Below, piece by piece: positions 6,001 through 50,300 of a DNA stretch of 64,000 nucleotides. Every line of letters begins with the position of its first letter. Position 1 is the stretch's first letter. The notes under the pieces were generated by a model. That model searched no databases. It was not told the DNA's origin and worked only from the letters and a program-made list of their open reading frames with translations. A program made the translations under genes and the position numbers. This DNA comes from Antedon mediterranea (lineage: Eukaryota; Animalia; Echinodermata): contig NC_092680.1 of assembly GCF_964355755.1 (NCBI RefSeq), positions 18,981,045 to 19,045,044 on the forward strand, read 5' to 3'.

Positions 6001-7392
6001 AAAGACAATGGGTGTATTCAACATTAAACTCATCCAGTCAACATGTACATCCCATAACAAGACAATTGATGCATTCAACATTCAACTCATCCAGTCAAGA
6101 TGTACAACCTATAACAAAACAACTGATGTATTCAACATTCAACTCATCCAGTCAAGATGTACAACCTATAACAAGACAACTGATGTATTCAACATTCAAC
6201 TCATCCAGTCAACATGTACATCCCATAACAAGACAATTGATGTATTCAACATTCAACTCATCCAGTCAAGATGTACACCCCATAACAAGACAATTGATGT
6301 ATTCAACATTCAACTCATCCAGTCACGATGTACACCCCATAACAAGACAATTGATGCATTCAACATTCAACTCATTCAGTCAAGATGTACATCCCATAAC
6401 AAGACAATTGATGTATTCAACATTCAACTCATTCAGTCAAGATGTACATCCCATAACAAGACAATTGATGCATTCAACATTCAACTCATTCAGTCAAGAT
6501 GTACATCCCATAAGAAGACAATTGATGCATTGAACATTCAACTCATTCAGTCAAGATGTACATCCCATAAGAAGACAATTGATGCATTGAACATTCAACT
6601 CATCCAGTCAAGATGTAGACCCCACAACAAGACAACTGATGTATTCAACATTCAACTCATCCAGTCAAGATGTACACCCCATAACAAGACAATTGATGTA
6701 TTCAACATGCAACTCATCCAGTCAACATGTACACCCCATAACAAGACAATTGATGCATTGAACATTCAACTCATCCAGTCAAGATGTAGACCCCACAACA
6801 AGACAACTGATGTATTCAACATTCAACTCATCCAGTCAAGATGTACACCCCATAACAAGACAATTGATGCATTGAACATTCAACTCATCCAGTCAAGATG
6901 TAGACCCCACAACAAGACAACTGATGTATTCAACATTCAACTCATCCAGTCAAGATGTACACCCCAGAAAAAGACAATGGGTGTATTCAACATTAAACTC
7001 ATCCAGTCAAGATGTATATCCCATAACAAGACAAGTGATGTATTCAACTCATCTAGTAAAGATGTACACCCCACAACAAGACAACTGATGTATTCAACAT
7101 TCAACTCATCCAGTCAAGATGTACACCCCACAAAAAGACAATGGGTGTATTCAACATTAAACTCTTCCAGTAAAGATGTACATCCCATAACAAGACAAGT
7201 GATGTATTCAACTCATCTAGTAAAGATGTACACCCCACAACAAGACAACTGATGTATTCAACATTCAACTCATCCAGTCAAGATGTACACCCCACAAAAA
7301 GACAATTGATGCATTCAACATTAAACTCTTCCAGTAAAGATGTTCACCCCATAACAAGACCAGTGATGTATTCAACATTCAAATCATCCAGT
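1..7392. repeat. 57-bp tandem repeat array (about 130 monomers, runs off the left edge)
   Basis: Consensus TCAACTCATCCAGTCAAGATGTACACCCCATAACAAGACAATTGATGTATTCAACAT repeated head-to-tail, matching the 19-aa periodicity in the ORF track (QLIQSRCTPHNKTIDVFNI). It degrades and ends near 7390. Confidence 0.98.
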
Positions 7393-8402: not shown

Positions 8403-8404
8403 TC

Positions 8405-20100: not shown

Positions 20101-23100
20101 ATCACTAAACTCATCAACTGCACATGGGAGTCATCCACATACAGTATTATGTGAATTTTACAGTAGATTATAATTTACTTTTTTATATTTTTAGATATCT
20201 GGAAAGATGGCAGATGACATACTTCATATCCTGGAATGTCCGATGTGTCTTGAAATATTTGACTCAACCCGACATCGACCAAAACTTCTACCATGCCAAC
20301 ACACATTCTGTGTGCCATGCTTGGACATGATAATGAAGAACAACGCCATTGAATGTCCAAACTGTCGTGTACAGGTCCCTCTTCCTGTAGCTGGAAAAGG
20401 TGTTGAGGGGTTTCCTAACAACTTGACTATGTTTGCTCTGATTGATTTGCAAGGAAAGAGTGAACAGAGCAGTAATGTGCAACAAGTGCCCGAATCACCA
20501 TTAACGGCACAACAGTCTGTGAATCTTCAGACAAGACAGACTATTTCTGCGTTGATCAGTCAGTTGAAAGGAAAAGTAAACACATTAAGCCAAACAAATG
20601 TTCAAGAGAACAAACTAGAACAAAGTTATCAGTACGCAAAAGGGCAGATTGATTCTTCACTTGAAAAAGTTGTAAATGAGGTACGAGCGCGGAAGAACAT
20701 TCTTGTATCACAGTTAGAAGCGCAAAGACAGGATGGTAAGCGCCACCTTCAGGTACAAAGACAACAAGCACAGGAATTACTGAAGAGTTTCCAGAATGAG
20801 ATTCAAGCGGTCATGTCTGCCAATCAGCAGCCTTCAAAGGAAGACTTGGACAATATTGTTGCAAAATGCAAGAATTATCTACAGCAGTTACACAATCTGG
20901 AGATGAGGGGTCAAGGGTCATGGTCATGGAGTTACATCGAGGATTCAAAAGAGCAACTTGATCAGGAAATTGCAAACTTTGGACAAATTTACAGCAACAG
21001 GAGTGCAACAGTAACATCAAATCAGTCACAGACTAACACAGATGGCAGATTGTCTGGTCAAACAATGCACATACAAACAGAACAGTTGGCTAATCACCTT
21101 CAGACTAGTTTAAACACTGAGCAATCAATATCACCTCTGTCTGCAGGAAATCCTTTTAACAGCCCTACAATTGTTGGAATACCTCGCAGGGATTCTGGCA
21201 ATTCTTTAAGCAGTATTGGTGCTAGTCAATCCTTTGACTCTGGTATTGATTCTAGAAGGCGATCGGAATCTTTCTCAAGTGAACACTTGCAGAGTTCTCC
21301 ATCATTTAATCAAAGTAATCTTCAGGTTTCAAGACAGATGCCACAGATAAAACCTAATCCTCAAACACAAGCAACTAATCCATTTTCACGACGCACATCA
21401 GCTGGTCCAGTTTTGAATCCACCACCTCCAGTTACAAACAGAAGAAGTTCTAGTCCATTACAAAGGCATCAGTCAACTGGAGCAGTTAGTGTTGTTGCAA
21501 AAAGTTTGCCAGCTCAGCAAACTTTTGTCAGAAACAATCCTCAAAATGTACAACTTTCACAGGTTAGCTCTACAACAAATGCATCTGCAATTTCGCCATC
21601 AGCTGCTCCTAATTACCGACTGAGAGGCAATCCTTGCAAAGTGTTAGGTGAGGGTCCTTCAAGAGGTATCAAATTTTCAAAACCGGTTGCTTTACTTTCC
21701 CTTCCAAACACAAATCTTGCTGTTCTTGACGAGAATTATAATTCCATTGCCATTTTGACTGCAGAAGGACAAATATTAAAATCTTATGGCACAATGGGAA
21801 ATAAACCTGGCCAGTTTTCGGCACCAAAGTCATTCTTCTTAAATAAACGGAATCAATTTGTAGTTTCAGACTCTGGGAATAATCGGGTGCAAATATGGGA
21901 TACAGGACGTGATTTTGTTAATGAATTTGGTTGTGCTGGACATCCATCAATACAACTTAGCAGCCCCATTGGTATTGTAAGTGACCGTCTTGAGAATATT
22001 TACATTTGCGATGCTAATAATCAATGTGTAAAGGTATATAAATCAGATGGAACTTTCTTACGCCAGATTGGTCAAGGTGGAGACAGTGATGGTCAGTTTA
22101 AAAAACCATCTCACATTGCATTCACTCCTGGTAACCAGTTAATGGTAACAGACTCTCTCAAACATTTAGTGCAGGTATTTACGCCGGATGGTAAATTTCT
22201 CTATAAATTTGGCGGTTGGGGTACTGAACCTGGAAAGTTGAACAGTCCTACAGGCATTGCGGTGGATCCGCAAGGATATGTGATTGTTGCAGACACCGGT
22301 AACCATCGTATACAAATATTCTATGCATCAGGAACAATGGAGACTTGCTTTGGTACTCATGGTAGCGAGGAGGGTCAATTTGATGAACCCACTGGTATCG
22401 GGTTTGTACACAATGGAAGATTTGCAGTATGTGATACAGGAAATAAAAGAATTCAGATTATTTAGAATTATATGCATAAAAATCAGAAATAAGTCAACAC
22501 TTAAAATATTGAAAGTGACTGCTACTGTACAAAAACTGATAACCATTATGCACCAAAAACCCTGAAGGCATTTTATGAACCAACAACTGGTATCGGTAAC
22601 GGGTCCCAATATTTCCGCATGTACAATGAACTGACAGTTTAAAATCGAGAGGTCCCCATTTACCAACCTTGGCCACTAAATATATCTTTCCCATTGAATG
22701 GAATGACAATACCATGTGTTACAAAATCGACCAATGGAATTGCAAAGATATACTTTTAAGTATGTATTTAAAGTGTGTTATAATATTATTTTATGACAAA
22801 TGTGTTTATAATTTGTTTTGACACATGAGGAGAATATCAATTTCTTGCCATGTTTACTTTCATTTTCTTTGAATTTCATGTTAATGTGTTTATATCAGTT
22901 CAGGATGGTTTTAGCAACTAGATGTACCAAAGTCATAATAGTTTAAAAAAAACACTACTATTGAATATACAGTAAACTGTTATTATTATAATATAAAATG
23001 TTTGGTATGTCAAACAATTTATTTTTGTTGTAAATGAGTGCTTATTTTTTTAGAAATAAAAAACATCAGTTAATAGCAACTATATAATACAGTAATAAGC

Positions 23101-29100: not shown

Positions 29101-32100
29101 ACAAAATAATACCGTTTCAAACTTGTTTACAATTTGGAACTTTGTTCCTCTCGTAGCCACAAAGCTGGAACGTGGGGAACTTAGAACACCTACATTACAT
29201 TAGCCTAAACAACTTACACCATCTAGCTCTCCTATTGAAACCTTGCCAGCATTTGTCTGCTTTCCTCCATAATCCTGTCCAAGATACTGCTTGCTCAGGT
29301 TGTTAAGCAGAGGAAGGAGTCGGTTGTCTTCCTCAAGCTGCGGTACTGCACGTGCCGTCAGAGCTAGTGCGTGGGACAGGTGAGCACGGTATGCACTAAT
29401 TACGATTGATACAAGGTCATTACTGGGTACATATGCATATCCCTGTAGAAAAAAAAACAAAACTCGTAAATTGATTGCTAATGTTATCAGACAGCGTATA
29501 ATTCATTTTGCAACATTTATTCCAGTTGAAGTTTTTCTTAATTGTCATAATAAAAAGTTTTAAAAAACTTTATAAATCAACTAGAATATACTTCATTTCA
29601 ACCAAGTATGATGCATTTAAATTCTATATAATAATTACCTTGTGAACATATATTTTTCTACTTCTCACCAGATCAAGGGCTTCAGTAAAAGGAACCTTTA
29701 AAGACAGAACAAGCAATATAATTAAATAATAATAAAACAAAATGAAACTGAACTAAAAATGATTAACAAAAGCTTTAAAGTTATATATACAATAATGGCA
29801 GTGATAAATTTAAAATTATCTATAATTCATTTTATTATTAGTCAACTCTTTTGTATTGGGTGAGCCTATTTCACCCTGGCAACCTTTTGTACGGGACAAT
29901 CCAAATTGTACTTGTGGCTTTAATGTTGAGAATCCGCTTCATTTCTTATGTTACTGCCCTAATTATAATACACAAAGAGATATTCTACTTGTAAGCGCTA
30001 ACTCAATTATTGAGGATATCTTAGCCAAGGATTTTTCTTTAACATTTAATTTTACATTTTTAAGTGAAATTTTTATTTTTGGTTCCGATCTTCTTTCGAA
30101 TTGTGAAAAAAATGCTTTATTATTTTATTATGTACAACAATTTCCTGTTAATTCTGGAAGATTTAATTGATGTTTCTGTTAGTTGTTTTAAAATGTTGTA
30201 TTTGTTAATCTGAGGCGCCTTGAAGCTAAGGTGGTTCCATCTTGTAAGGCGCCTCTGTGTAATATACTGAATAAAAAAAAAAACAAAAAAAAAAAAAACC
30301 TTGTACGATACAGTAATGCAAACTATTGGACAAAAATTAGTAAATCAATTCATTAACAAACATGTATATGAGTGACATATAACTATGATTGATCCATATT
30401 CAATAATCTTTGATGACCTTACAATAATATTGTCTGGCCTATGAGTAAACATTCATCATCTCAACATAAAATAAAAGAAACCTAATAATAATAACTCACT
30501 AATAACACCTGTTGTTAATTAGGACAATGGCTAGAAACTGACCAATTAATATTTAATGTAATAAAAACAAATTATAAAGACCTTATAGAATTCAATTCCT
30601 TCAATGCTCATCTCTGTCAAGTTGTAACTTGAGTCAACCAACTGTTTCTTAAGTGCTTCCTTCTCTTTCGCGTCAATCTTAAAAAAAAATAAAATATTAT
30701 TCAAGGACAGAATCTTAAGTGTAATAATACTGTTTAATAATAGAATAATGAATAATATAATATTTTGTGGCGAGTGGCTTTTTCAATATTTTTATGGATT
30801 GTTTGAATCTGGGAGTTTGTTTTATTTTACACTGATGAAAATGTGAAAATGGCAAACACTCTGAAAAGCTTGGTGTTAAAAACGTTTCACCTGAGCAATG
30901 TACTTTAGTCCACTCTACCAATACTGTACACTAGGTCTGGTGTTCCTTAAATCCTATTTTCCAAATGTACTTTAGTGATATAAAATAATTTGGGACCTCA
31001 AGGACAGTCTGATATTCGGAGTGGTTCCAGTTTTCAGAGAGTCCAGTTGGGAGAGTCCAATGAACAGTAAATAATAGTAAGTTTACATCCACAATTTTCA
31101 TGCATTTAAAGAATTATATTAAAAAAAAAGAATAATTTAGTGAACTACTTGTTTGCTAACCAAACAAAATAAACTAGTATAATATAAATTTAGCATTTTC
31201 TATTAGAAATATAAGACAACATTTCGGAGGGCACAATAGAATTTATTGAGAAAGAAATTGACTCCTTAGAGGCAAAACTAAAATAGGCTTTCTACTTACA
31301 GGTTCATAGTGAAGATCATTGTCAATTAAAAACTGTGTTCTAAAAGATGTCCTTTCATCAAGAAATCGAAAACGAAACAACTCAAGTTCCTGAGTTATGA
31401 ACCATCGACGCAACTCTTCTCTACAAAAAAAACCCATTTTAAATAAGTTTTGCCATTCTGCATATTTGGAATCTTTATAAACCATAATAAAACAATAGGT
31501 TATAGATTCATATAGCCTTACGATTTGCAATATGCTAATCGGAGAATAAAATGAGAAATGTGGTCTGATCTTCTTTTCTGAATCTCAGCAGTTGCAGCTC
31601 CTCCCATGGACTAAAAAATAGAAAAAACATCAATAATAATAACAATTTAGAAGATAAAATACATAGATTTTTACTTTCTCCTTTGGCTTTATTCTGGCAA
31701 ATCAATTAGCAACAAGGACACTATTCGATATATTATTACAGTACAATAAGGTGGATTGCAAATAGCTTGATTTAGCAAGGAACGTCATTGCACAATGCAT
31801 GATGGAAGGGTTTGAGAGCAAATGTCGCAGCGCATACGTACAAACAACAGATCACGTACGTACACGTTGTGACGTTTTCTCCCAAACCCTTCCCACTATG
31901 CGTTGCGCACGCTATTTGCGATAAACCTTATGAATGCATCTGAATCTAAAAACACCAAACTTAACTGATATATCTGTCGACCATCTACTAGTACTAGGCT
32001 ACTATAGTTTTCTAGAGCTAGGCCTAGTGCGTTAATTTTAAAACTTTACCTCAGATTTTGGCAAAAATTTATCTTTATTAAATTCGGTTTCTAAAGCTTT

Positions 32101-32615: not shown

Positions 32616-35600
32616 ATGTCAGCAGCCGTAGCGCACATGATGTTTAGAAAGTTAACACTCGTTCACAAAGCGTTTTGTAATGGAACCATAGCTATTGAAA
32701 AGAGATTTGCTTCAGGAATTAATTCCCTTATATATAGTGAATATGGAGACCCGAACAATGTTATTCAGTGCGTACTTAATTCTATCTAGTCCTAGTAGGC
32801 TTTTAGGCTAGTTAGGCCTAGAAGTCAGTTCGAACGATCGTCGATGGTAAACCTGCCCACCAACCTGCCTGGCTGGCTGACACAGCGCTGGCTGACACAG
32901 CGAGCGAGATACTTTATGTAGGCTAGGTAGGCCTGTGATAGGGGTCTGGTGTAGGAGGAGGACGACGAAAACTTTAGGCGGCCAGCAGGTCCTCGTGCCC
33001 TGCCTACCAGCAAGGCTCTCGTACAGACTAGGCATATTTATTAAAGCTAGGTAGGCTATATAGACTAAGTAATTATATGCAACCAGTCATAGTTTAGTTA
33101 GCAAAAATAAGATAATTAATATCTAGCTATTTTTATTAACAATAACTGTAATAACATTATTTTTGCAATTTGTTGTTGTGGCCCGTGGGTATATGCACAC
33201 AAGGCCTATCGAAATGACTACAACAATGTACAACCTTATATTATTTATATTTTACTTTTTAGGCCTATTTACAGTTTATGATCATTGATGAATAGTAGTA
33301 CAGTAGTTGCCTCTCACTGACACTGTTAGTGTCATTCAATTTATCTAATTCTTTTTGCAAGCATATACAGTAGCTTACTGTATATTAAGTAATTGATAGA
33401 TGTTTCTTATTTCCTTCAACATTTAACAAGATTAAAAAAGAGATTAAAACTATCATTTTTCATATACATGATGTTTTAGGTTGCAAACAGACAATAAGAT
33501 CCCAACATTGGATGAAAATTGCCTGCGGATTGAAATGCTTGCTTCTCCAGTCAACCCCGCTGATATCAACACAATTCAAGGTTTGTTCTTGCATCATTAT
33601 TAACATGGACAGCAATAAAGAAAGCATACATTACAAGGTTTAATATGTTTATTGTGTTTTAATAAAAGGAAGATATTATGTTCATCTGCTTCAAGATTTT
33701 TTTCTTTACTTTTTCAATTCAATTACAGGAATTTATCCAGTTAAACCGCCTCTACCTGCTGTGGGTGGTTTTGAAGGTGTTGGAAAGGTCATAGAAATGG
33801 GGAAAAGAACATCAAATATAAAGATAGGAGATCTTGTAATACCAGCTATAAATTCATTAGGTAAGGTTTATATGTCTCCTATTTTGCAATCTGCAGTATA
33901 TGCTGCCAACGTTCATACCAATTGACCAAGATGCATAATAATTGTACTATTATTTAATAATATGGCAATAGGTTGGTTAAAAACTCTTCTCTTAGAAAGT
34001 TATTATCTTCTGTCAGAGGTCACAAAATTGAAAAATAAAAGGATAATTGAACTTTTAGCAAGAGACAGACTTGAAATGTCCTTCGATTCAAGAGACTTGG
34101 TTTTCTCTGCTTACAGTCTTCGTTCTAGAGCTCCTTGGAACTAATTAATCTATGATTTTAGTGTTTTTCAATATACAAGTTTATTAGTCAGTCACTGCAA
34201 TAAGGAGTGCAGTGTACGATCATTCCAAAAACAATCTTGCTAGATTATTTTATAAGCAGGTTTTTAAATAGTAAAACAAATGGGTATTTATTGCAGTAAC
34301 TACAGCAGAATAATTTTAACATTGTCCCTTAAGCTCTGTCTTCACTATGAAATTTATTTGACAATGTGATATGCCCATATATCGACATGATGATGTCATA
34401 TCACTATTATATTTGGGCATATCACCACCATATTTGGGCATATCACCACCATATTTGGGCATATCACCACCATATTTGGGCATATCACCACCATATTTGG
34501 GCATATCACCACCATATTTGGGCATATCACCACCATATTTGGGCATATCACCACCATATTTGGGCATATCACCACCATATTTGGGCACATCATACTAGTT
34601 TGATAGTGTATACAAAGCTTTACAATTTCTAGGAACATGGAGAAGCCAGGTTGTCTGCCCAGCTGAACACGTTTCAGTCATTCCAGAAGGAACGCCCTTG
34701 TTGTTTGCTGCCACTTTACGTGTTAACACATGCACGTCATACAGGATGTTGGCAGATTTCCAAGATCTTGAAGCAGGTAAATTTTTGTTTCCTAGTCCAG
34801 TAAATTCTGGTCTTTTTAGTAATAATCTTTAGCTGAAAAACAATTGTATAAACAATAGGTCTTGTGTGTAACAGTACATGCAAAAACAATAAATACAAAA
34901 AAAAAACAAAATTAAGAAATCAAACTTATTAAATAAACAAACTAAAATGATAAATTGAACAAATCGTCAGTCGTGTTTTAATAGCTCAATTTCCTTGCTT
35001 TACAGCTTTCTACCCTTTTTATAACTAATTACTGGAAACACTGTTTTTAAAATGGTTTACATGATGGAATATTATGGCTTAAATCCTAGGGCAAAAATAT
35101 ATCAATATCATATCAATGTCTTTTATCTATTGTAGGTGATACTGTGATCCAAAATGCTGCAAATAGTGGTGCTGGTCAGATGGCTATCCAAATTGCAGCA
35201 GCTAGGGGGTTAAAAACTATTAATGTTGTACGAGACAGGTAAGACTTTAAATAGCCATTAGTCAAGTCGGTTGGCCAAGCCAGGCAGGGACAGATTTGCT
35301 TAATAATTTTGTTTTCTTATGCAGACCTAACATTGATGAATTGAAAGATCATATGTACAGTCTTGGTGCTAATATTGTTGTCACAGATTCTGAATTGAGA
35401 ATGTCATCACCAGAAAAACTTCTACCGGTAAGAAACAAACCTATATATATGTAAATGTATTTAATGGTCTTCAACTTAAACTGTGTGAACCTCTATGGAC
35501 AGCACAGTGCAGTACCTACCATAAGAGATGATTCCCTACTCATCATTATTATGCACATGTGCATTTTATGTATTCAAGACCAACTATTTCATGTCCCATC

Positions 35601-36976
35601 CAAAGGATGAGTGCAATGAGATTAAAGCATCTAGCTTATGGATACAATCAGTATGGCACAGATAGGTCTTGAACCCATGTTTCTCAAATGCTAGGTGGAG
35701 TTCTTACCATTATGCCATACCACTCACTCTGTTCCCAGCACTACACTCATTACATGGTCTACATATGACAGCGAGTCTGGATGTCTAGTTCAAGAAAATG
35801 ACACCTAAAGTGTCTTGCCTAATCAAGACATAGGCCTACTCCTATAAATAGTTATTGATTTTAAATCATTTTGTTTCAGGGGCTACCAAGGCCTAAGCTA
35901 GGTTTAAATGCTGTTGGAGGAAAGAGTGCAATAAGTCTCATGAAATATCTCCAGTAAGTACAATGTATGCATTTAAAAATATCATTGAATGTTTAGTCTA
36001 AAAGGGCTTTAACTTAGACAATACAAGTAAACACTTATGTGTTCAACATTCAAATTGTATAGTAATTACAAAAAGATAAATTATTTTGCTGTAGACATGG
36101 TGGAACCATGGTTACGTATGGTGGAATGTCAAAGCAGCCGGTTACCGTACCAACAGGAATGCTGATATTTAACAACATCAAAGTAGTAGGATACTGGATG
36201 ACAAGATGGCATGACCGCAACCCAAATAGTAGGGGAATATTTACTTTATATTCTAACATATAAAATATTGTAGTGGATTTCCCCTACTAAAAATAATGGT
36301 TTAGGCCACACCCTCATATTGGCTGTGAATGGCTGATTTATTGGGCCTATGTGTGGCTAATAGATTTTGTTGATGAATGAAAAGAAAACAAACAGTTCTG
36401 TTTAGGTTGTCAGAGGGAAAGACCGGCATGGTTTGCTAGCCAGTTGATCATAGTAACGCACAGTAACATCTTTTTTGATTTAAAATTAATGGTTGGTTGG
36501 TGTCTAGAGTGCTCTCTGTGTATTCTCACAGTTTACCTCATAAGAGTGAATTTTTAACTTAGTTGTTTAGATTCTTGCCTACTGATTCAAAGATCTTGGT
36601 TTCAAATGCTTTTTTCTTCTCAGAAATACTGTATTCGAAATAAAATACCACACTGACTCTGCAATTATTTCTGCTTAAATGTTTATAATACAAAACTCTG
36701 AATAGAAATATTGAAACATTTTCTTTAGAAAAGTATCATCAGTTACCATCTCGTCTTGCGACGATGGTTGGTTTAAACAAAAAATAATTAAACTAAATTT
36801 GTTTTTAAGGTGTAGAAGCTGAACGAATGTTTGATGAATTATGTCAGTGGGCAAAAGAAGGACGACTACAAATTCCTCGACATCGTCTTGTCAACATATT
36901 AGATTACAAGACTGCTATTGAGGGCGCTATGGCAGATTTTACAACTGAAAAACAAATCCTTGTTTTTGATCAATGA
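32616..36976 (+). CDS. MECR: Mitochondrial trans-2-enoyl-CoA/ACP reductase (9 coding exons, 369 aa)
   Basis: Exons 32616-32767, 33480-33580, 33729-33860, 34633-34776, 35136-35238, 35325-35427, 35880-35953, 36095-36228, 36810-36976 join in frame (1110 nt). Basic N-terminal targeting-like peptide, [26 protein letters not shown] (catalytic Tyr), [54 protein letters not shown]. Confidence 0.95.
34331..34620. mobile_element. MITE family B copy 2 carrying an expanded 21-bp minisatellite (GGGCATATCACCACCATATTT, about 9 units)
   Basis: TIRs AAGCTCTGTCTTCACTATGAAA / TTTGATAGTGTATACAAAGCTT, with near-perfect 21-bp units at ~34395-34590. Confidence 0.85.
35570..35720 (-). mobile_element. Degenerate tRNA-derived SINE
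   Basis: The minus strand reads TGGCATAATGGTAAG (A-box)...GGGTTCAAGACC (B-box)...GGATGGGACATGAAATAG. Confidence 0.5.
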
Positions 36977-37748
36977 ATAAAAACTATTTATATTTATACA
37001 AAATATAGAGTTTATCCAGGTAAGCAGAACTTATAGACTGGTGTAAAAAAAATTGATCATAACTTACAAAGAGGTGTTCTGTCATAAACAAATATTTATA
37101 AAAGTGTATTTTAACTTGCTAACCCTTGGGCTCTAACCAAGGTTGCTAGCTTGACCCCGCTTCCAAAAATCCTGGCGACGCCCGTTGTATAATTGAATTC
37201 TGGCTGTAGAAACCATCATAAACAGGTGTTAGCCACACAAGTCATCATATCATCATTTCAGTAATTCATTATTAATGTGCTTAATATGAAATACAACCAT
37301 CGTATGAATGTATTAGTCACTGTCGTGTCTGATGTATATTTATCCACAATAGACATACAAAACCGTGCGCAAATATTATAAACTATCATGTAAAAAGGTG
37401 CCTCTTACATTTGGATTATTCCATTCTTTTATTTGAGTATATTGTGTTTATTTTACCTTGGATTGTTATACTGGAGAACAAAAATCAACAGTGAGTCTCC
37501 ATTCCTCCATTAAAAAAATATTACACCTAATCCAAAAAAACAAACAAACCTGGCACTAAAAAAACGTCTATTTTAATGATTATTCTGAAAAATTTGATGG
37601 AAAGCAAATAATGAAGGTTGATATTAATTCATATTTCTGAAGAAAATCATAATCATAATGATTATACTGTTTACATACAATATATAATAAATGGTATTTA
37701 TAACAATAGTAATAATTATTATTATTATATTGTGTATACATATTGTAT

Positions 37749-38009
37749 ATATCCAATCTGCAGAGTACTGTTTCGATCTTATTAGATCTCGTCAGTGCAA
37801 CTCAGATTTTGAAATAAGTACCGCAGCACAATATATAGGCTGAGCCAGTTATGTAGAACATGGCACACTGATTATGAACATAAAGAGTGCACGAGCGTGC
37901 TTTGCAAAATGCTAATAGTATTCACAACAAAAATGTACTGTTTCGAAAAAAGAATTTTGTATAAAACATCATAATATAGTAGAATGTAGAGGAGGGTAAT
38001 ATCCAATCT
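37749..38009 (-). mobile_element. Retrozyme / Penelope-type hammerhead-bearing ~250-nt monomer insertion
   Basis: Direct repeat ATATCCAATCT at 37749 and 37999 (250 nt apart). A hammerhead core lies at the 3' end of the minus strand, and the 5' end of the unit falls within 3 nt of the predicted cleavage position. Confidence 0.6.
37755..37808 (-). ncRNA. Minimal type I hammerhead ribozyme (stem III possibly defective)
   Basis: Minus strand AATC-TGAGT-TGCA CTGACGA GATCT AATA AGATC GAAA CAGTAC TC^TGCA-GATT has the conserved CUGANGA and GAAA boxes, a 5-bp stem II with a G-C closing pair, a bulged stem I and a UC cleavage site. Confidence 0.75.
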
Positions 38010-41000
38010 TTAGACACATAAGAAAATTATTAGTGTGCTTGTCATGGTCAGGTAAAGGCGTTGCGTTTTCAGCTCATCTATTCTTACCTCACAAGATCTA
38101 TAAATAAACTTTTAAATTTTACATTTAATGCATCTATAAATAATAACTGTAGAACTGTAGAATTTTCCCATAAAAACGAATTATTTAATTTTAAAAGTGT
38201 ATACTGTATTATAATTAATATAAAAAATAAAATTGTTTAGTGTAAATAACTGTAATTTGATAATACCAAAAGTATGATTGTCCTGACCATAGAACAAGCT
38301 ATCCATTTATTTTAACGTATGAAAAAGGCAAATTCATTTTTGAAAATAAAATTCGAGTTTATCCTTTTGGGAAATCTGGAATTTATATTCATAGGCAATT
38401 CTGTCATAACAGTAAAATCTAAAGGTTACAACATAAAACAAAATGAATTTTCAATACAGTATATATATTTTTGTTTAGAAATAGAAATTTGGACACTATT
38501 CAGTGGACACCGTTATTAGGGATACCTTAGGAGTTAGGAGGATGCACCCTCTGGATCCCTCTCTGATGATATTTGGTTATCAAATTTATTGCTCTGACCT
38601 TCACAAAAAAAGACATATTTATTCAGACTCATGGTGTTAAGGTAGTGTTATGTGCAAGAGTACATATTTTTGTGTCTGAACTGAAAAACCGATACAAATG
38701 CTTGTGTCAACTCTGTTTCAAAGGTCCTCTAAACATTCTGTATGACAAGCGATAGAAAATTCCAGGGTTCAATCCTGATGTAGTGCCAGGGTTTTAACTC
38801 AGGATTCTAAGCCTCAAATGAGACTTAGTTTATAAAGCATAATCAATTATAAAATAGTTAAAATCCTGCTGTAATTGGCGAGGTACTCTCTATTTGATAT
38901 AAAATAATAAAAAAATATCACATTATAAACTCAAAACAAGTAAAATTGCAATTTAACTCATAACTCAGAAATTTAACTCCAATAAAGTAGATCATGTAAA
39001 AACATATCTATAAACAATTAAAAAAACACACCATAAAAAAAATCCATTCTTTATATTTTCTGTCTAAAGACAAGACAAATTTATTCCAGTGTGAAAACCA
39101 TCAAAGGACAGTTTAAATAAATAATCAAACAGTGTCTTAACATGTATTCCACTGAAACAAAATCTGTTAACAATTTTTGTATAATTTTTTAATCAATAAT
39201 ATTACTCTCAAGTATTTATCCACACATTACAATTTGTTTATAGAAATTATCTTAGCATATTACATTATCCAGTTATGATTTTTATAATTAAATATTGATT
39301 GAACATTATATTTATAAGTAGATAGGTTCAAACACATGATGAAAATTTAAATAAATATGAAGTTTTATGTATGCTTATCAACATTATGACAGTCACATTA
39401 GTTTTCACATGCCTCTGTGAATTAAATATATTTTTTATGATTTATTACCATGAAATTTATTGTGAACATGTGGATAAATTCTTGAGCTAAAACGTATCGC
39501 TTTACAATTATATTTACAAAACGTGTTTTATTAAAATAATGCATCAAAAAAATTCCCTAGATTTTTAAAATCTATTTTCAACATTAATATTGCTAAATGT
39601 GTGTGATCATTAATATTCTCTAATGAATATGCATTACCCATCAATGTTTATTCATATTTTCATCTTCATTAATGCACTTTATTATTTCATTCATAGCCAA
39701 ACAATTGATATAAATGAATATTTATGTATTCATCATTTTAATGAATTATCATTTTAATGGTTATTCATCATTTTAATGAATACTCATTAAATATTTTAAT
39801 TCATACTATTAAGTATTATATTCATAACCATTCATGAATATTCATTATGAGTAATAAATATATCTTTAATTGTGAAAGTGGCAAGTAGCGTTGGAAATTC
39901 AACGTCTCATTTATCAATGTTATTTTTAAATGTTTTCTTAAAATTAGACAATATATTCAACAAAATGAAGCATAAATATTTGATTAATTAAAAGATATAA
40001 ATATTTTTTCATGTGCAAGAGATTGTCCTGAAAAAAGACTACAAAACTAACAATAAATACTACAGTCTTAGACAGCTTATGGCCAACTATTTAAAAACAC
40101 CAAAATATACTCATTTTACATATATCACAATGAGTAATAAATATTCGGTAAATAAAATGATTTTCTTTTTGGTACGAAACTAAAATTATTTCTAAATAGC
40201 ACAACGCATACAAATAAATAAGCAGACAATAAGTGACATTAAATACATATTTTTGCACTTAAAATATTGGGTCATAGGTCACTGTATCTATGTACATTTT
40301 AATCAGTTACTGTTGGATAAGATTATCACTGAGAAACAAAACAAAAATTATAAATTACTAATAAAAAAATGACTGAGTTGATAAATAAGATATGTATGAA
40401 ATATAATTCTTGTGAAATCAACATGTATTTATTTAATTTAACTAAAATGCTTAATTTATTGAAATATGAATTGCCAATTAGCAGCACACATAATCGTAAC
40501 AATGCCCAGCAACAAAACACTGTGTGAAGTGAACGCGGTTAAACAGTACATTTATTGCACAAAGTTAAATCAAAGACCAAGACCTAAAACCTAAAGCCAC
40601 ATAGATCTACACAATCATGTATCTCTGAGTTTAAATCAAAATTTAATCTTTTCAATCACAATTTTGAAAAAAAAAGTACAAAAATACCTCCTTAAAACTG
40701 CTTTAAAAACTGCGGTTAAAAAGGTTAAAATAAAATATTCATTGATTTTTAAATTTTCTCATTTAAATTTCATAAAGTATTTGAAAGTAAATTTTATTTC
40801 TAATGAGGTTTTTACCAATGCTCTACAATTTTAGTAGAATTACTAAATAAACCTCATCTATATAAAAACTGAAAGAGTGTGACTGTACAGGTAAATGTGT
40901 TCAGTGATGATAGCTTTGTGCTAGCTTGTGTACACACTACAATTAGCACATCTAATTAGTTCTGTTTTAATTGCACAAGCTTAGAGAGTTGAAATGAAGT

Positions 41001-41329: not shown

Positions 41330-44300
41330 TTAGTTTTGCTGCAGAAGTAAATTCTCGAGTTCTTCGGCAGATCGGTAAAGGAATGCAGCTGATTCACGGT
41401 AGCTTGTAATCAAGTTGCGTATTTTGGTGATTTCTGACGGACTTAATTGTGTCTTCGCTTTCTTAATGCTAAGATCTGTTGGCCCTGAAAGTAAAAAATT
41501 AACAATTTTTATTAAACTTTTTGCAATGCTAAATTGTAGTTTGTTTCCTCCCAAAATTAATTAGTTTTACTAGCTGTATATAAAGTAGTCAAATTTAGAT
41601 GCGGCAGATGAAGTAGTTTTAGTTTTATCTTTTTTTCTATGGTCAAGTGGGTGGTTAAGACAGGAGCACTGTAAATCATATCTATAAAGTTAGCATAGGT
41701 TCAAAGTTCTCCTTGACAATTGTTCTGGTGGTAGACTAGTGGTTACCCCAGGTCACTGATTCAGCCCCTATCATTCATGGTAGGCGCTGCACAAATCATG
41801 TCCAATTCTTTTCTTCACAGTAGTAATTTTAGAGAGCAGATTTCAGTTGTAAGAAATAACTACTGCATTCGTTTTATTTATTGTTTTATTTTTATTGTTG
41901 CTGTATAACAACAGATATTGCTAACAATCTCGTAACTAGAATTTTCTTGCATCAGCGTGCCAATGCCACTTTAATATATCATTTATAATCTCCTTATTAA
42001 ACTTCAAAGGTAATAATGTTTAAATCCCCTAGTGTGTATATATAAATATACATTGTATTGCAAATAAATGATAATATATTGACACTAGTTCATGAATGAA
42101 GGATTGAATACAATTTATTTTGTGCTACAGTATGCATGCCAAATTATCATTTTAATATTTTTTATATCTTAGCTCCCCTTTCAGTGTGTTCACTGCAGTA
42201 TGCGTGCCAAATTATTTTATTTTAATAATTTTAATTTAGCTCTCCTTCTGTCGCATTTCAATATGTTTTAATGGTGTTTAAGGATTGTATGGAGGTGTTT
42301 TTCAACATTACTCAAATTTAATTCAATTCAACATACAAATAATACAGAGCTGCATAAAAATCTATGAAAGGCCAAATGAAAAAAAAATGAACACATACTG
42401 TAATATTTTATACAATTTAAATTGCATTTTTGAAACACCATATTCAAATTATTATTAAAGATTGTCTTACCATTGGCAAGAGATGGATGCTGAGTGTGCT
42501 GACTGATAATGGGTGATTGACGAGAGACTGGTACCATCGTGGGATAATATGCTTCGTGGGATACGCCATTTGAGTACCTGTAATCCATCGGTGGGGGTCT
42601 AGGTGACGGTTTCATTGGCTCCTCGTATATACGCGTTGTCGGTGCAGGTGGCTGAGGTTCAACTTGTACTTCCGGCTGTTATTTAACAAAGTCAAACAAT
42701 TATGAATTGTCTATGAACTTACAGAACATATAAGAAAAGGAAATAAGCTAAGCCTAGCTAACAGTTGTTTTGGGCCAGATGTAGGGTTTATTTAAATCAT
42801 GAGGCAGCAAGCAGTCTGGGTTTAAATAAGTTGTATGAAAGCTAGATATACCTAGGATAATGATACATTAATAATTATTTTTTAATAATGGGAAAAGATT
42901 ACAAATTACATTATACAGTGTCAAAAATATAAGATTCATAAAAGTGGAAATGAATGAATAAAATGACTAAAAAAGTCAGGATAATTTGCAAGACCTGGGA
43001 AAGTAAATAAATTTAAATATAATTTGAACTTTGTGACTTACATGTCCTTGTTGTTGCAGTAATTCCATCCTAATTCTTTTGGCGTTATCGCTCTCGCTCT
43101 CGCAAGCTGCGGCCAGAATGTGCTCGGCTCTGGCTGATGTAAGATGAGGTGGGGTCGGTCTCAAAGTCTGCAAGAAAATAAATAAATATAAACATTAGGA
43201 TTATTTTAATATTAACCAATATAGAGATTACTTATTTATTATCATTTTTAAATTGGGAATAACAAACGGATATCAAATAGAATATTTCAATATTTATTTT
43301 ATTTTAAGTGTGGTCTTCAATAGAATAACAATTTGAGTTTAACCACAATTTCAGGATCTACAGATATTGACCACTCATTATATTTAAAAAAACACTTCAT
43401 ACAACAACAAATCCAGATCTAATTACAAGGAAAATAAAAACGAGCTACAAAGCTAGTTAATGCTATTGACTTGAAATCGCTACCTCTCAGTTGCATACCG
43501 ATACCAAACAGAAAATTATATAATTTTGTTCAATCTTTTTACTATTATTCAAATAAAAATTACAAAAATAGACTCCCTTTGAACTATATGAGTTTTCGGA
43601 CTACAAAATAAAGACACCAATCTGGCTTAACAATCCATAAAATACAAGCACACAAACTTAAAGTTCATTAATCAATTTGTTCACGTGGGAAAATGTTACA
43701 ATAGACAATATGGTTATATTTTAAATTTTAAAAACAACTAAACAACAACAGATATTAATACAACATTTTATAAAGAAATCGCTAACCTTTGAATGTATGA
43801 AATGAATACAGAAACATAATGAAATAAAACATTATCCAATACAACCCTAAAATATTTTATTACACAATGAAATCTAGTCAGCTTCTTTTTCAAAGTTTCA
43901 AATAACATGATGTTTTATAAATTTAATACAGAATCAAATAGTATTGATATTACTGTACACACCGAATAATATATATACGTTTTTGAATAATCAAAAAAAT
44001 AAATAAATGACTATAATCAAATTATAAAACCACACAAATTAATTGACAAAAATTGTTTTAAAAATATAAATATAGTAGGCTTATGAAGTAATTCAGATTA
44101 TGTCTAATATTTAGAAAGTGTTAGGTATGCCTCTGTATACTAAGAATAAGAATACTAATAACAGATAAGAATTGTTTTAGATTAACGCTGGAATTATCAA
44201 ATTATCCTGAAAAAATTATTTGTTTTAAACTGTAAACATATTCTTTGATGATTATAATACTCACTGTTTATTATTCATGAGTAATCCTAGTAATTGTTCA

Positions 44301-47300
44301 GTAAACAGGGAGGCAACAAAATCACTTTAAAGCATGCAGTTCTTAAAGAACATAAACCGCTGCAATAATTTCCAATTTTCTCTTGCTTGCTAGCATAATG
44401 AACTAACATTGTCAAGAATGAGACTATGCAATAGGGAGGTCAAGCCACGCACTGCTTTGTTACAGCTCAGCCAAATGCAAGACAAAGGACCTCGACATAA
44501 TCACCCAACAAGCGAAAAAACAATAAAAACAAGCGAGTTATAAATAATAAAATATTTAAAAACTACCTGATTTCTTGTGGCAATTTATCTGATTCTCCGT
44601 CCAACACGTGGAACAATAGGATTTTTTGTTAGCTAAGCTTCAACGACCGGCCGTTGAATTGGATTTATGAATATGAAATATAATTTGAGGTGAAAAACAT
44701 GATGCTAGTAAATAATCATCTGACCTTGAGGAATCAATTAGAAGCCCTCTAGATAGTTGTAGCCATCTAGACAGGAAGTGATCATAAGGCTTATAGTACG
44801 GAAAAAAAATCCTGCTGTGATCGTCACAAGATGACTGACAGTTTGACACTTTTTGACTTTTTTATGAATTGGCAATTTTTTAAGGATTTCTTTTAATTTT
44901 TATTATGATTGACATTACATTAATGTTGACATTTGTATTTTAAACATAATTCGTATTATAGATTTAACATTAATATTCTTGTTATTTTTTTAATAATTAA
45001 TATTTTTACTTAGGATTTTATGGTAGTACATTTTGTTTTATTTTAACCTTCTATTAAAAAAAATCATGAATTGAATTTTAGGATCATCTTAAACTGTATA
45101 TTATTGAAATTTTTCTATAAAAAAAATCATGAATTGAATTTTAGGATCATCTTAAACTGTATACTATTCAAATGTTTCTATAAAAAAAATCATGAATTTA
45201 ATTTTAGGATCATCTTAAACTGTATACTATTCAAATTTTTCTATAAAAAAAATCATAAATTCAATTTTAGGATCATCTTAAACTGTATACTATTCAAATG
45301 TTTCTATAAAAAAAAACATGAATTCAATTTTAGGATCATCTTAAACTGTATATTATTGAAATATTTCTATAAACAAATTTTTATTAAAATTCTTCAATCG
45401 CAATATTTTAACCGTATATCAGGATTTAAAATAAACATTTTGTTTAAGATAAAAATATGGATTTTTTGTCACTGAAGAGACTAGATTGATTTAAATTGAT
45501 TGAATCTATTTATAAAATATAATTTATTCAGCAGAATAGCATGTTCAATCAATTATACATATTGTAGTTGAATTTTACGTTGAAACAAACATGATTTTGT
45601 AGTTCATCATAAGGGTAAATGCTGCCCTCGTTGTTCAATTTTTCACGAGATACAATTATCAATCGAGCCTAAGAATTTTAGCCGTTCGTCTTATCTTAAT
45701 AGCACAGAAGGGTTGAATGTTATTTTTCATAATATTAAATACGTTTTTTTTGTAATGTGGTGAAACAGCAAGCCTTGTCTGGGATATTAAATAACCAAGG
45801 GAGTTGACTGCACCCGATCCCTATGGAAAAGCTAACCAGTGACGACATCCACGGCCTAGTAATATAATATGATTAAAAAACATTATTGTCTCTTGTCAAA
45901 GTTTTTACTGTACAATCCATACAAATTTAAAATTTTTGATTAAATTGAATTTAATTATGTATACTGTGAACCCTAAAAAAATACTACAGTATACTTAATT
46001 CTAATTTGACCACCTTAAATAATATGTATATTCGACCGGGCTGTTACTTAGATAATCAGATTATCTATCTGCTCAAACTCCTCACTGATTTTATGGTAGC
46101 AGCAGGAGATCACTGCGAGGTACTGTATTGTGAGTGACCAGTTGAGTATGCCTTATGTGCATAAGCAACTTCAGAATATACAGTACTGTGCTTAGATTTG
46201 TAAAGTTAAAGGTATCTTTACGCCACTGAATGACATGCAATACTATTAATGAATTATTTCACATGGTACCATGTATAACATTTTGTAAGGGAATAATTTA
46301 CAAAATGGTGGGTTGTCTGTTTGGTACCAAAGAACACTTTCAACATAAAAAAAAATATGCCCGTCATTCATCCTCAAATGCGTACTGCACCAGGCCTCAT
46401 GCAGGGTATGAACCTGGCCAGGTCAGATGACACAGACCCTGTATGCTTAGCCCAGCTTAAGTGTTTTGAGTACCTACCAAGATTTCAAAAAAATATTGGG
46501 GAGAAACACACAAATGAGTCAGCAGCGAAGGAAATGATTTAAGAGATGTTAAGCCTGTAGGTCCCAAAGAAAGATAAAAGGCTGTCTAATTTGAGTGATG
46601 TAAACTACATGTCAAAAGAAAACATCTCTTATAAATGGCAGTCAATGGTGGGTCTATCATAACCTAAATCATACTTGTTTGTTAATGATAAAAGGGAGGT
46701 TTCGCAATCTTACGAATACGATAACGAAAACGGATACGTCACGCACACGTATTCGGTTTTCGTAAGCCAGTAAAAATCTGTTTCGCATGGCAACGAAATA
46801 TTGAGAGCGCCGTCCAAAATATGACTGCGGTAAATTTAAGCGAAGCGCAGGTACGTGTTGCTTGGTGCTTGGCTGCCTAGGCCTAGCGTAACATCAAAGC
46901 GAGTGAGGACTTTAAAAACTGCTATTTATCAAAATTGACCAGGCATTTTAGTAAATTACTTTAGTAAATTACTTTCAATAAATCTATAATTATATTATAA
47001 TCATGAATAATTCCTGATTCAAATGCAAAATGTGTAAAATAGATTAAAAACTATACTCGTTTTGTAGTTACGAATATGACTGATGATATTCGTAAACACG
47101 AAAACGCTTTACAAATATGAAATGGAGATCAGCTCAAAAGTTTCACAAATGTGTGACGTATCCGTTTTCGTAAGGTTGCGAAACCTCCCTAATAAGAGTA
47201 CAAACACAGCCTATAATTGTCAGAACGGCGCTACGCAATGGAGCGCCCTTTGATATACAGTATGGGAGGCATTGTGACAGCCAGTCTATTATTCACCCTC

Positions 47301-50300
47301 TCCATTTCAGAAATCATGGATCAGCCCTGAAGTCAGTACCATAAAATATTTTCAGCCTATAATCTTCACACTCTTTTAAAACATTGCTGGAAAATCATCT
47401 TTAATGTATCTTAAAACACACTCGACTACTACTACTTCATAGAAAGAAGAACTCTCTGTAGGCCTAAAGTGTAAATTCTGTACTATCAAAATCAAATCAA
47501 CGTTTTAAATTTTAGAAATTAAAACTGACAATGAATTGTCAAATATGGTTGAAAAGCTTTTCTAGAAAATACTTGGAATCTAAAGGAAGTTATTTAAAAG
47601 ACAAACTAAAGTATGAACATGTTAAAAAGAGTATCCGTGTTTAAAATAATTACATTTCCGAAGTCCCACCCTATTAAAAAGAGGTGTCTTACAGTTTACC
47701 ATCAATAAATTGAACACGGCTAATTCGCCTAATGCATTTTTAGCTTGTCCATAATTAAATTTTCTCGTTAAAAGCATAGAATGATGGATGGAGATCAGTA
47801 TACCGTTACCAGGCAAGTGGCTTCATTTTACTTAGCATAAATTGCTTAAAACGGCGAGTTTAAAATTTTGACCATTTTGAATAATATAAGATTGGAAAGT
47901 CTGAGAGTGCTACCAATGTGTCAGTTCACATAAAATTATTCCAAATTTTTCCTGGTTTTAAATAAAAGGTTGGGTAATTCTAGTTTTTAAATTGCTATTG
48001 AGAATTATCTTAACTACAACCATTTTGGTAGCAAATTTCAAAATTTTAAATCGAGATTTCCTGTTTTTTTTATAGCTTATTTCACGTTTAACGTATGCAT
48101 TCAGAGTTAAAATTAACAATTGCCACTATGGAACTGTATCTTTGTGAATTTACAATACACACCAAGATAAATATTGATTTTCCGTCTAGTTTCGTAATCT
48201 TGTACCGCTTAAACTAGCAAATCCAGGTGGGGGAATGAAATATATTCTTATTAAGAAATAGTCAATTCCAAAATCGGAAGATATATAAACTGACTTTCAG
48301 GTAGACACAATTAAGGAGAGTTGACTGTACAATTTTCAGAAAAAATATAATTATAAATAAATATGGTACACTTGAGTACCACTACCATAATTTATAGTAC
48401 ATTTAAAGTTCAGACACTGTACTGTATTTTTGTTTGCATTGTAAATATGGTATCATATATCTCCAGTTGTGGTATGCATTTTTTTGCATGGTAAATATAG
48501 TATCATAACTCCGGTTGTGGTATGCATTTTTTTGCATGGTAAATATGGTATCATAACTCCGGTTGTGTTATGTATTTTTGTTTGCATTGTAAATATGGTA
48601 TCATAACTCTGGTTGTGGTATTTATTTTTTTTTCATGGTAAATATGGTATCATAACTCTGTTGTGGTATGCATTTTTTTTGCATGGTAAATATGGTATAA
48701 ATCCGGTTGTGGTATGCATTTTTTTTGCATGGTAAATATGGTATCATAACTCCGGTTGTGGTATTCTTTTTTTTTGCATGGTAAATATGGTATCATAACT
48801 CCCGTTGTGGTATGCATTTTTTTTGCATGGTAAATATGGTATGGTATCATAACTCCTGTTGTGGTATGCATTTTTTTAGCATGGTAAATATGGTATCATA
48901 ACTCCTGTTATGGTATGCATTTTTTTTGCATGGTAAATATGGTATATCTCCGGTTGTGGTATGCATTTTTTTTGCATGGTAAATATGGTATCATAACTCC
49001 CGTTGTGGTATTCATTTTTTTTTGCATGGTAAATATGGTATCATAACTCCTGTTGTGGTATGCATTTTTTTTGCATGGTAAATATGGTATGGTATCATAA
49101 CTCCGGTTGTGGTAAATATGGTATGGTATCATAACTCCGGTTGTGGTATTCTTTTTTTTTTGCATGGTAAATATGGTATCATAACTCCTGTTGTGGTATG
49201 CATTTTTTTTGCATGGTAAATATGGTATCATAACTCCTGTTGTGGTATGCATTTTCTTTGGATGGTAAATATGGTATCATAACTCCAGTTGTGGTATTCA
49301 TTTTTTTTGCATGGTAAATATGGTACTGTATCATAACACCCGTTGTGGTATGCATTTTTGTAATGATAACTATGGAACTCTCATTGTGCAGCCCTCCTAT
49401 AATTTACTTACTGAATCTAATCCATTAGCGTCTCTCTGTCTTTTCATCCTTCTACAAGACTTGAGGTATGTTCTTATTCTTTTTCTAGCTCTTTCGTGGA
49501 ACTCTGGAAACTGTCTGTAGCATGCCTCCAGTATTGCCTGTACTTTGTCTTTAGGTTGTTTTGAGATCGGTACCATTCTGTCCAGATTTTCATCAACAAA
49601 AAGCCGTACAAACATCTATAAGATATGAAACATAATAATGTTATTAATAATAAGAATAAAAAGAAACAAAAGAAATCATTTGTTATTGTTTTAATCACTA
49701 ATTCAGGAAGTCAAATAATTTATTTACAAAAGGGAAAGAACCTTTCAAACAGGTAACAGAGTGTATGTCTGAATACTGTGGTTAAGTTTTGTCCTCTCAG
49801 GTGTACCTCTTATTATAATAATTCATAAACAAATCCAAAACCACAATTTTTCATTTCCTTCTAAAAAATTATTTACAAAGTTTTTAATATATTACATTTT
49901 TAGCCTGAAATATATAACTACAGTAACCCAAAATAACTGGGAAACAAACTCTCCTCTTCTCTAAATATATTCGGTTAAATAAAAACAAATAATGTTGCTG
50001 AATTACACACTGCCAATTATTGAGCTTCAACACTGTCTAGCCTCATTAAAAATGATTCACTTAATGCAATAAACATGAACTGTTATTAGTGCATTTAAAA
50101 TTTGATGGTGTAATAGGTTAAATTTCAGACTTGCTTCAACTTGTGCTGTATTCTTATCAGTGAGATTAATGTATGGAAGGCAATCACTGCCAAAAATACA
50201 ATTACAAACATACAATGAACACAACACAAAAGCACACAACATAGTCGGGAAAATTAATGTGTACAATATGACCATTGATATTTTTCGTAAATGCATTTGT

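What the first reader, a model, noticed from the sequence alone, without database searches (positions are those of the whole stretch)
37749..38009. Hammerhead ribozyme at the end of a ~250-nt terminally redundant unit: a retrozyme-like circular-RNA footprint downstream of NOL4L
Seen (minus strand): AATC-TGAGT-TGCA / CTGACGA / GATCT-AATA-AGATC / GAAA / CAGTAC / TC^TGCA-GATT. This gives a bulged stem I, both catalytic boxes, a 5-bp stem II and a UC cleavage site (between 37763 and 37762). The sequence just after the cleavage site (AGATTGGATAT) is repeated exactly 250 nt upstream at the 5' end of the unit, as expected for slightly more than one monomer copied from a circular or multimeric RNA. 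A second CGAAACAGTAC fragment lies at ~37935-37945. Established: minimal type I hammerheads with palindromic loop 3 occur in Penelope-like elements and in metazoan non-LTR retrozymes that yield small circular RNAs. Caveat: stem III has C opposite C; a 2-nt loss from GAAACAGTACTGTC would explain this, so the copy may be inactive. It is in sense orientation 3.5 kb downstream of the NOL4L stop, so an active version could cut an extended 3' UTR or read-through RNA (inference).
Basis: partly seen in the sequence, partly recalled or inferred. Interest (0 to 1): 0.8.

Follow-up and report, generated by a model that had tools for sequence, protein, structure and literature searches.

The report
Broken hammerhead retrozyme copy, feather-star-like genome
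This is an old, damaged copy of a 250-base jumping repeat that carries a predicted self-cutting hammerhead RNA, one of many copies in a feather-star-like animal, likely pasted in from a ring-shaped or multi-copy RNA as known retrozymes are, and unlikely to act on the neighbouring gene.

Summary
A type I hammerhead lies at 37813-37752 (minus strand), and the upstream repeat is a real head-to-tail junction. In a related species and in paralogues, 38016-37999 reads as the cleavage triplet plus the post-cleavage strand, exactly 250 nt before the downstream site. The unit is a high-copy repeat (core depth about 1,000 times, body 80-180 times, junction about 10 times single-copy). A homologous family in another animal shows three compensatory pairs. 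Host genes point to a crinoid-like echinoderm. Verdict: a solo 'monomer-plus' derivative of a metazoan non-LTR retrozyme, likely mobilised by Penelope-like elements; a new member of a known kind. Corrections: the ribozyme is canonical rather than 'minimal'. Cutting of the NOL4-like RNA is unsupported: the copy is broken, 13 AATAAA sites lie in between, and the nearest gene is a convergent MECR-like gene 0.77 kb away, to which the motif is antisense. Circular RNA and cleavage are not shown.

The parts
37763..38012 (-). 250-nt monomer, from the upstream (ancestral) cleavage site to the downstream one; non-coding, 34% GC
   Evidence: no ORF of 90 aa or more overlaps it
37999..38016 (-). Remnant of the preceding hammerhead: cleavage triplet plus post-cleavage strand (terminal redundancy); 2 private substitutions at 38011-38010
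   Evidence: the orthologue in organism B (X6 record 23, X14 record 4) and high-depth paralogous unitigs carry the family letters; a paralogue in X2 continues upstream into helix III letters
37752..37813 (-). Type I hammerhead: outer stem I 37813-37809/37756-37752, inner stem I 37800-37796/37762-37758, CUGACGA 37795-37789, helix II 37788-37785/37778-37775, GAAA 37774-37771, damaged helix III 37771-37764, predicted cut 37763/37762
37763..37766 (-). Site of the 2-nt loss in helix III; leaves C opposite C and breaks the 10-nt palindrome
   Evidence: table 4; self-duplex of the helix III segment -6.0 vs -14.8 kcal/mol in intact L001
37749..37762 (-). 3' tail past the cleavage site, running into TA-rich flank, as in other copies
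   Evidence: (loose ends)
37929..37949 (-). Internal CGAAACAG box, predicted to pair with the hammerhead's 5' stem I strand and catalytic box (possible lock); most copies have G at 37936, which removes the mismatch in the middle of this helix
   Evidence: duplex -8.6 kcal/mol; 37936 variant in 7, 2 and 7 contigs of X1, X5 and X6; function inferred
37808..37945 (-). Repeat body shared by many copies; weakly similar to the body of the homologous family in L013
   Evidence: depth; local score 52, reached by 0 of 2000 pair-shuffles, max 48
41330..41482 (-). Last coding exon of the NOL4-like gene (context)
   Evidence: upstream exons hit PF23079 HTH_NOL4_2nd at E 8e-35 and 2e-5; the last exon has no Pfam hit and is assigned by recall of the NOL4 C-terminus
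36809..36976 (+). Last coding exon of a convergent MECR-like gene (context)

Best explanation
This is a solitary, damaged copy of a 250-nt non-coding repeat with a type I hammerhead, likely a non-LTR retrozyme that a Penelope-like reverse transcriptase would have copied from a circular or multimeric RNA and inserted into AT-rich DNA. Shown: the hammerhead anatomy with covariation, the 250-nt spacing between two cleavage sites, head-to-tail junctions in paralogues of two species, many 5'-shortened copies that end about 12 nt past the cleavage site in TA-rich DNA, presence at the same locus in a second species, and the 2-nt loss. Inferred from the described life cycle: intact multimers are transcribed and self-cleave (helix III as a 3-bp hairpin or as a 10-bp dimer duplex) into 250-nt monomers, which a host ligase circularises. 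Reverse transcription would start about 14 nt past the cleavage site, run once round and stop 4 nt past the site again, giving the 1.07 units seen here. This copy then decayed and is predicted not to cleave; no host function is indicated.
For: Junction: (unitigs spanning cleavage site plus monomer start at depth 2400 vs 273.5 single-copy in X2, and 526.6 vs 56.5 in X6; their loose ends overlap those behind the body, so the junction leads into the short unit, not into an ORF). Repeat status and 3'-biased depth gradient. Intact helix III in the family: and 13 of 13 homologous loci (selected by a pattern that allowed 0-2 nt there). Covariation: 3 pairs changed on both sides, 1 of 500 shuffles as high, 0 in six slid controls. 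Intact homologue L001 matches Rfam Hammerhead_1 at E 1.6e-4. Size, GC and lack of ORF fit PMC7229834; solo monomer derivatives and a PLE origin are described in bioRxiv 10.64898/2026.07.22.740005.
Against: No long tandem array was seen: no genome is held, and no go-back joint appeared in X1, X5 or X6. Junction copies are only about 5-12% of body depth, so most copies look like plain PLE-type 3' ends. The three compensatory changes come from one comparison (window vs one other family). This copy's circle folds no better than shuffles (-40.1 kcal/mol, z -0.34, 38 of 100 as low). The hammerhead fold is not the predicted minimum for the window copy or for L001. Rfam scores are below gathering. No target-site duplication of 9 nt or more. 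The autonomous partner was not identified. Summed contig depth is not a true copy number.
Confidence: 0.72

Rival explanations
1. The locus is a pLTR-plus-tail fragment of an autonomous Penelope-like element, shortened by truncation or internal deletion; the redundancy is the ordinary PLE 'tail' and no free 250-nt circle is involved.
For: Depth falls steeply from the 3' end (core about 1,000x, body 80-180x, 5' end about 10x). Homologues L001-L018 are variably 5'-truncated, end a few nt past the cleavage site in (TA)n, and none shows a second unit. PLE tails and AT-rich targets are described in PMC11167929 (passages).
Against: Junction unitigs continue into the linker that leads to the body in both species. 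There is no ORF between the two sites. The ribozyme lacks min-HHR traits. This rival differs from the best reading mainly in whether the short unit moves on its own.
Confidence: 0.2
2. The locus is what is left of a local DNA tandem dimer whose first unit was deleted, so the redundancy says nothing about an RNA template.
For: The upstream remnant is only 4 nt beyond the cleavage site, and no TSD marks the insertion ends.
Against: No trace of a first unit upstream of 38016 (blastn of the unit against the window). Paralogues begin at similar points with different flanks (X6 record 31 at 38008; X2 record 14 just inside helix III), as 5' truncation during reverse transcription predicts.
Confidence: 0.05
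3. The copy was co-opted to cut read-through or long-3'-UTR transcripts of the NOL4-like gene.
For: Sense orientation; the insertion is old enough to be shared with organism B.
Against: Helix III is broken in two individuals of organism A (X1 record 1 and X5 record 17 span the site with no gap). There are 13 AATAAA hexamers between the stop and the element, the first at 40798. Shared presence in species about 7% apart in the flank needs no selection.
Confidence: 0.02
4. Chance assembly of motifs in AT-rich DNA.
For: Rfam score below threshold; 1.4% of window positions have an 11-mer that recurs 100-400 nt downstream (750 of 52,500).
Confidence: 0.01

Closest known systems
Metazoan non-LTR retrozymes (Acropora, Mytilus, axolotl; Cervera and de la Pena 2020, PMC7229834)
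   Same: Type I hammerhead, unit of 150-450 nt, GC under 50%, no ORF, head-to-tail junction at the cleavage site, high copy number.
   Different: Here a solo 1.07-unit copy with a broken ribozyme; no long array seen; host is crinoid-like, a group not found in the texts read; expression and circle not shown. An internal strand complementary to the catalytic box is predicted, whereas the paper says most metazoan circles (some mussel ones excepted) leave the ribozyme free.
Monomer derivatives of non-LTR retrozymes as non-autonomous PLE sequences (Li, Clavereau, Pollet, bioRxiv 10.64898/2026.07.22.740005)
   Same: Dispersed intergenic solo copy, inactive by their two-complete-units rule; PLE-like ends.
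   Different: That survey covers vertebrates, three insects and a coral; no pLTR match could be tested here.
PLE pLTR with min-HHR and 3' tail (PMC4209133; PMC11167929)
   Same: Hammerhead near the 3' end, short tail past it, AT-rich target, 5' truncation, palindromic helix III region.
   Different: No RT/GIY-YIG ORF between the repeats; 4-bp helix II with no extra base between 9 and 10.1; full helix III in intact copies.

Membership tests
Metazoan non-LTR retrozyme | Type I hammerhead in the repeat unit | tested here: met
   intact in the family, damaged in this copy
Metazoan non-LTR retrozyme | Unit of about 150-450 nt, GC under 50%, non-coding | tested here: met
   250 nt, 34.4% GC; no ORF of 90 aa or more
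Metazoan non-LTR retrozyme | Head-to-tail joining of units at the ribozyme | tested here: met
   junction at this locus and in high-depth paralogous unitigs of two species
Metazoan non-LTR retrozyme | Tandem dimers or arrays with complete ribozymes somewhere in the genome | tested here: inconclusive
   absent at this locus; no assembly held; unitigs too short; one go-back joint only, in organism D (X15)
Metazoan non-LTR retrozyme | Highly self-paired circle | tested here: inconclusive
   this decayed copy z -0.34; no intact monomer available to fold
Metazoan non-LTR retrozyme | Self-cleavage and accumulation as circular RNA | not testable with these tools
   no run on record as RNA and no raw reads
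Metazoan non-LTR retrozyme | Target-site duplication longer than 4 bp, when present | tested here: inconclusive
   no shared word of 9 nt or more between the flanks; two 8-mers not at the ends
Autonomous Penelope-like element | RT plus GIY-YIG ORF between pLTRs | tested here: not met
   only 250 non-coding nt between the two sites
PLE minimal hammerhead (min-HHR) | Long helix II with an unpaired base between 9 and 10.1; helix III absent or minimal | tested here: not met
   4-bp helix II directly after the CUGANGA box; 3-bp helix III with tetraloop in intact copies
Rfam Hammerhead_1 / HH9 | Score at or above the gathering threshold | tested here: not met
   window 20.4 bits vs 52 (HH9); intact homologue 26.5 vs 34 (Hammerhead_1)

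The most novel reading that the evidence does not exclude
Crinoids carry an undescribed, still active 250-nt retrozyme family whose circle locks its own hammerhead with an internal antisense copy of the catalytic box, as viroids and plant retrozymes do, and whose dispersed monomer-plus insertions record Penelope-type reverse transcription running just over once round that circle.
Probability: 0.3. Interest if true: 0.45.

Novelty: new member of a known kind. Interest (0 to 1): 0.24.

Why it matters
Modestly. It extends hammerhead retrozymes to a crinoid-like echinoderm, a group I did not find in the papers searched. It also gives a clean example of the more-than-unit-length insertion that the circular-template model predicts. 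The internal lock is a cheap test of how animal retrozyme circles avoid re-cleavage, which PMC7229834 leaves open. This copy itself is likely inert, and such elements are common (1,772 earlier scan notes in at least 103 genomes mention them).

Tried and rejected
No whole genome is held, so arrays, copy ends and the autonomous partner could not be counted. Expression: no RNA holder listed. X5 is only guessed to be RNA; its contigs cover 37400-37793 and parts of the body but nothing at 37978-38400, which might fit an MECR-like 3' UTR but is not evidence. Viral contigs: 0 matches to the motif. Metagenome scan: 6 of 19 matches (L004, L005, L006, L009, L014, L019) lack the catalytic box and helix II and were dropped as chance. 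L017 duplicates L003, so the 13 family loci are 12 distinct sites. Alignment A1 used 8 of the 13 and A2 used 11 of the 13; cut or truncated copies were left out. GIY-YIG-like fragments in L018, judged by eye, had no Pfam hit (0 of 4), so no link to an autonomous PLE was made. TSD search was negative. The state of helix III in organism B's orthologue could not be read from the truncated tables. Earlier scan notes: none by sequence or for echinoderm words. The supplement of PMC7229834 was unreadable and bioRxiv supplements are closed; either may list echinoderm retrozymes.

Full report
Observation. It is the only CUGANGA-helix-GAAA motif in the window with a stem I and cleavage triplet, and 2 of 300 simulated sequences gave such a hit. 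Rfam gives only a weak HH9 match (20.4 bits, E 0.099). The 11-mer alone is weak evidence, since 750 of 52,500 positions have an 11-mer recurring 100-400 nt on, so the unit was tested with other copies.

Host and neighbours. An intronless RING-NHL ORF at 20210-22465 is 70% identical to a protein of the crinoid Anneissia japonica and 40-46% identical, over part of its length, to sea-urchin proteins, so the host is likely a crinoid. The NOL4-family gene is confirmed by PF23079; its stop is 3.57 kb upstream, with 13 AATAAA hexamers in between. A convergent MECR-like gene on the plus strand ends at 36976, 773 nt from the element, which lies antisense to it.

It is a repeat family. No genome was held, so I laid public contigs. 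Runs X1 and X2 may be the window's own source; X5 is another study of the same organism; X6 and X14 are organism B; X15 is organism D. Summed depth relative to single-copy flank is about 1,100x (X1) and 860x (X6) over the ribozyme core, about 180x (X2) and 80x (X6) over the body, and about 10x over the 5' end. The tool warns that these are not copy numbers, so I use them only as a gradient. In organism D mainly the core matches. Organism B has both flanks joined to element sequence (X6 records 25 and 32, X14 record 4), so the insertion predates that split.

The copy is broken. At 37763, contigs with 2 extra nt make up depth 2734 of 2980 in X1 (12 contigs), 1017 of 1622 in X5 (5), 7983 of 8486 in X6 (13) and 60,060 of 62,606 in X15 (13). 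The locus-specific contigs of X1 and X5 lack them, so the loss is real and not an assembly error. Intact copies have a 10-nt palindrome that can form a 3-bp hairpin or a 10-bp dimer duplex: -14.8 kcal/mol in L001 against -6.0, out of register, here.

The terminal redundancy is a real junction. At 38010 and 38011 the orthologue and all paralogous contigs listed carry the family letters, so 38016-37999 was an 18-nt copy of the cleavage triplet and the post-cleavage strand. Unitigs at about 9 times single-copy depth span that site plus the monomer start in both species. One X2 paralogue continues upstream into helix III letters, and three X1 contigs do likewise. Loose ends before 37974 overlap loose ends behind 37947-37948, linking the junction to the body in paralogues. 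The unit from site to site is 250 nt and 34% GC.

Homologues elsewhere. A metagenome scan gave 19 matches; 13 are one hammerhead family in host-like DNA (12 distinct sites), and 6 were chance. All 13 have intact helix III and end a few nt past the cleavage site, most of them in TA-rich DNA; those not cut by a contig end are 5'-truncated to varying extents, and none shows a second unit. Against 8 of them the window shows two compensatory pairs in helix II and one in an outer stem I, plus two one-sided changes of its own (U-G for C-G and U-G for U-A); 1 of 500 shuffles did as well. These are three events on a single branch. A model from 11 of them finds the window motif alone at 39.9 bits (partly circular), and L001 matches Hammerhead_1 at E 1.6e-4, below gathering. 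The bodies are weakly alike.

The internal box. Most copies differ from the window at 37936, so its 11-nt identity to the ribozyme's 3' half is partly private to this locus. The region is predicted to pair with the 5' stem I strand and catalytic box, and the family letter removes the central mismatch (and inspection). I read it as a possible lock on the monomer or circle; this is inference.

Mechanism. Shown: anatomy, junction, repeat status, damage. Inferred from PMC7229834 (parts 1-4 of 6 read; supplement not seen): multimeric transcript, self-cleavage, ligation by a host ligase, and more-than-unit reverse transcription. PLE dependence and solo monomer derivatives come from bioRxiv 10.64898/2026.07.22.740005 (parts 1-3 of 5). 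Min-HHR traits come from PMC4209133 (parts 1-2 of 4), and tails and AT-rich targets from PMC11167929 (passages). Against this reading: no array seen, the junction is a small share of copies, the circle of this copy has no unusual stability, no TSD, no RNA data. A truncated or internally deleted PLE end remains the main rival (0.2).

Novelty. The class is known. Searches for echinoderm or crinoid cases (seen as listings, passages of PMC7761336 with 0 hits for echinoderm, sea urchin or starfish) showed none: 'crinoid' had 0 occurrences in the 25 of 49 papers listed, and 'Anneissia' 0 in the 25 of 54 listed. Unseen supplements may hold some. Verdict: new member of a known kind, this copy likely dead, interest 0.24.

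Noticed in passing
window 1-7392 and 8404-11003: Long tandem arrays of a 57-bp unit (more than 100 copies, strong strand skew) and a 66-bp unit (about 40 copies).
   Followed up: no
window 20210-22465 +: Intronless 751-aa RING plus NHL-repeat (TRIM2/3-like) ORF; only 5 hits at E 1e-30 or better, the named ones echinoderm.
   Followed up: partly
window 36976-37749: The MECR-like 3' region has AATAAA at 36976 and 37686; a long 3' UTR would end just short of, or run into, the antisense strand of the retrozyme copy.
   Followed up: partly
window 34397-34592, 45049-45377, 48426-49359: Intronic minisatellites of 21, 63 and 49 bp in the MECR-like and NOL4-like genes.
   Followed up: no
window 29826-30170 +: Frame with a C-x-C...H...C motif that by recall resembles the C-terminal end of a CR1/L2-type LINE, within the primase large-subunit gene region.
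   Followed up: no
L018 3-326 (-) and 3123-3371 (+); L015: Fragments that by eye resemble PLE GIY-YIG domains near hammerhead copies; Pfam gave no hit for the four L018 pieces.
   Followed up: partly
window 37751-37799, run X15: One organism-D contig goes back from 37799 to 37751, i.e. two hammerhead cores in tandem.
   Followed up: no
window 37784-37779 and 37757-37754; L001 equivalent: In both families the first four bases of loop 2 could pair with the 3' strand beyond inner stem I, a possible alternative to the outer stem I (by eye only).
   Followed up: no
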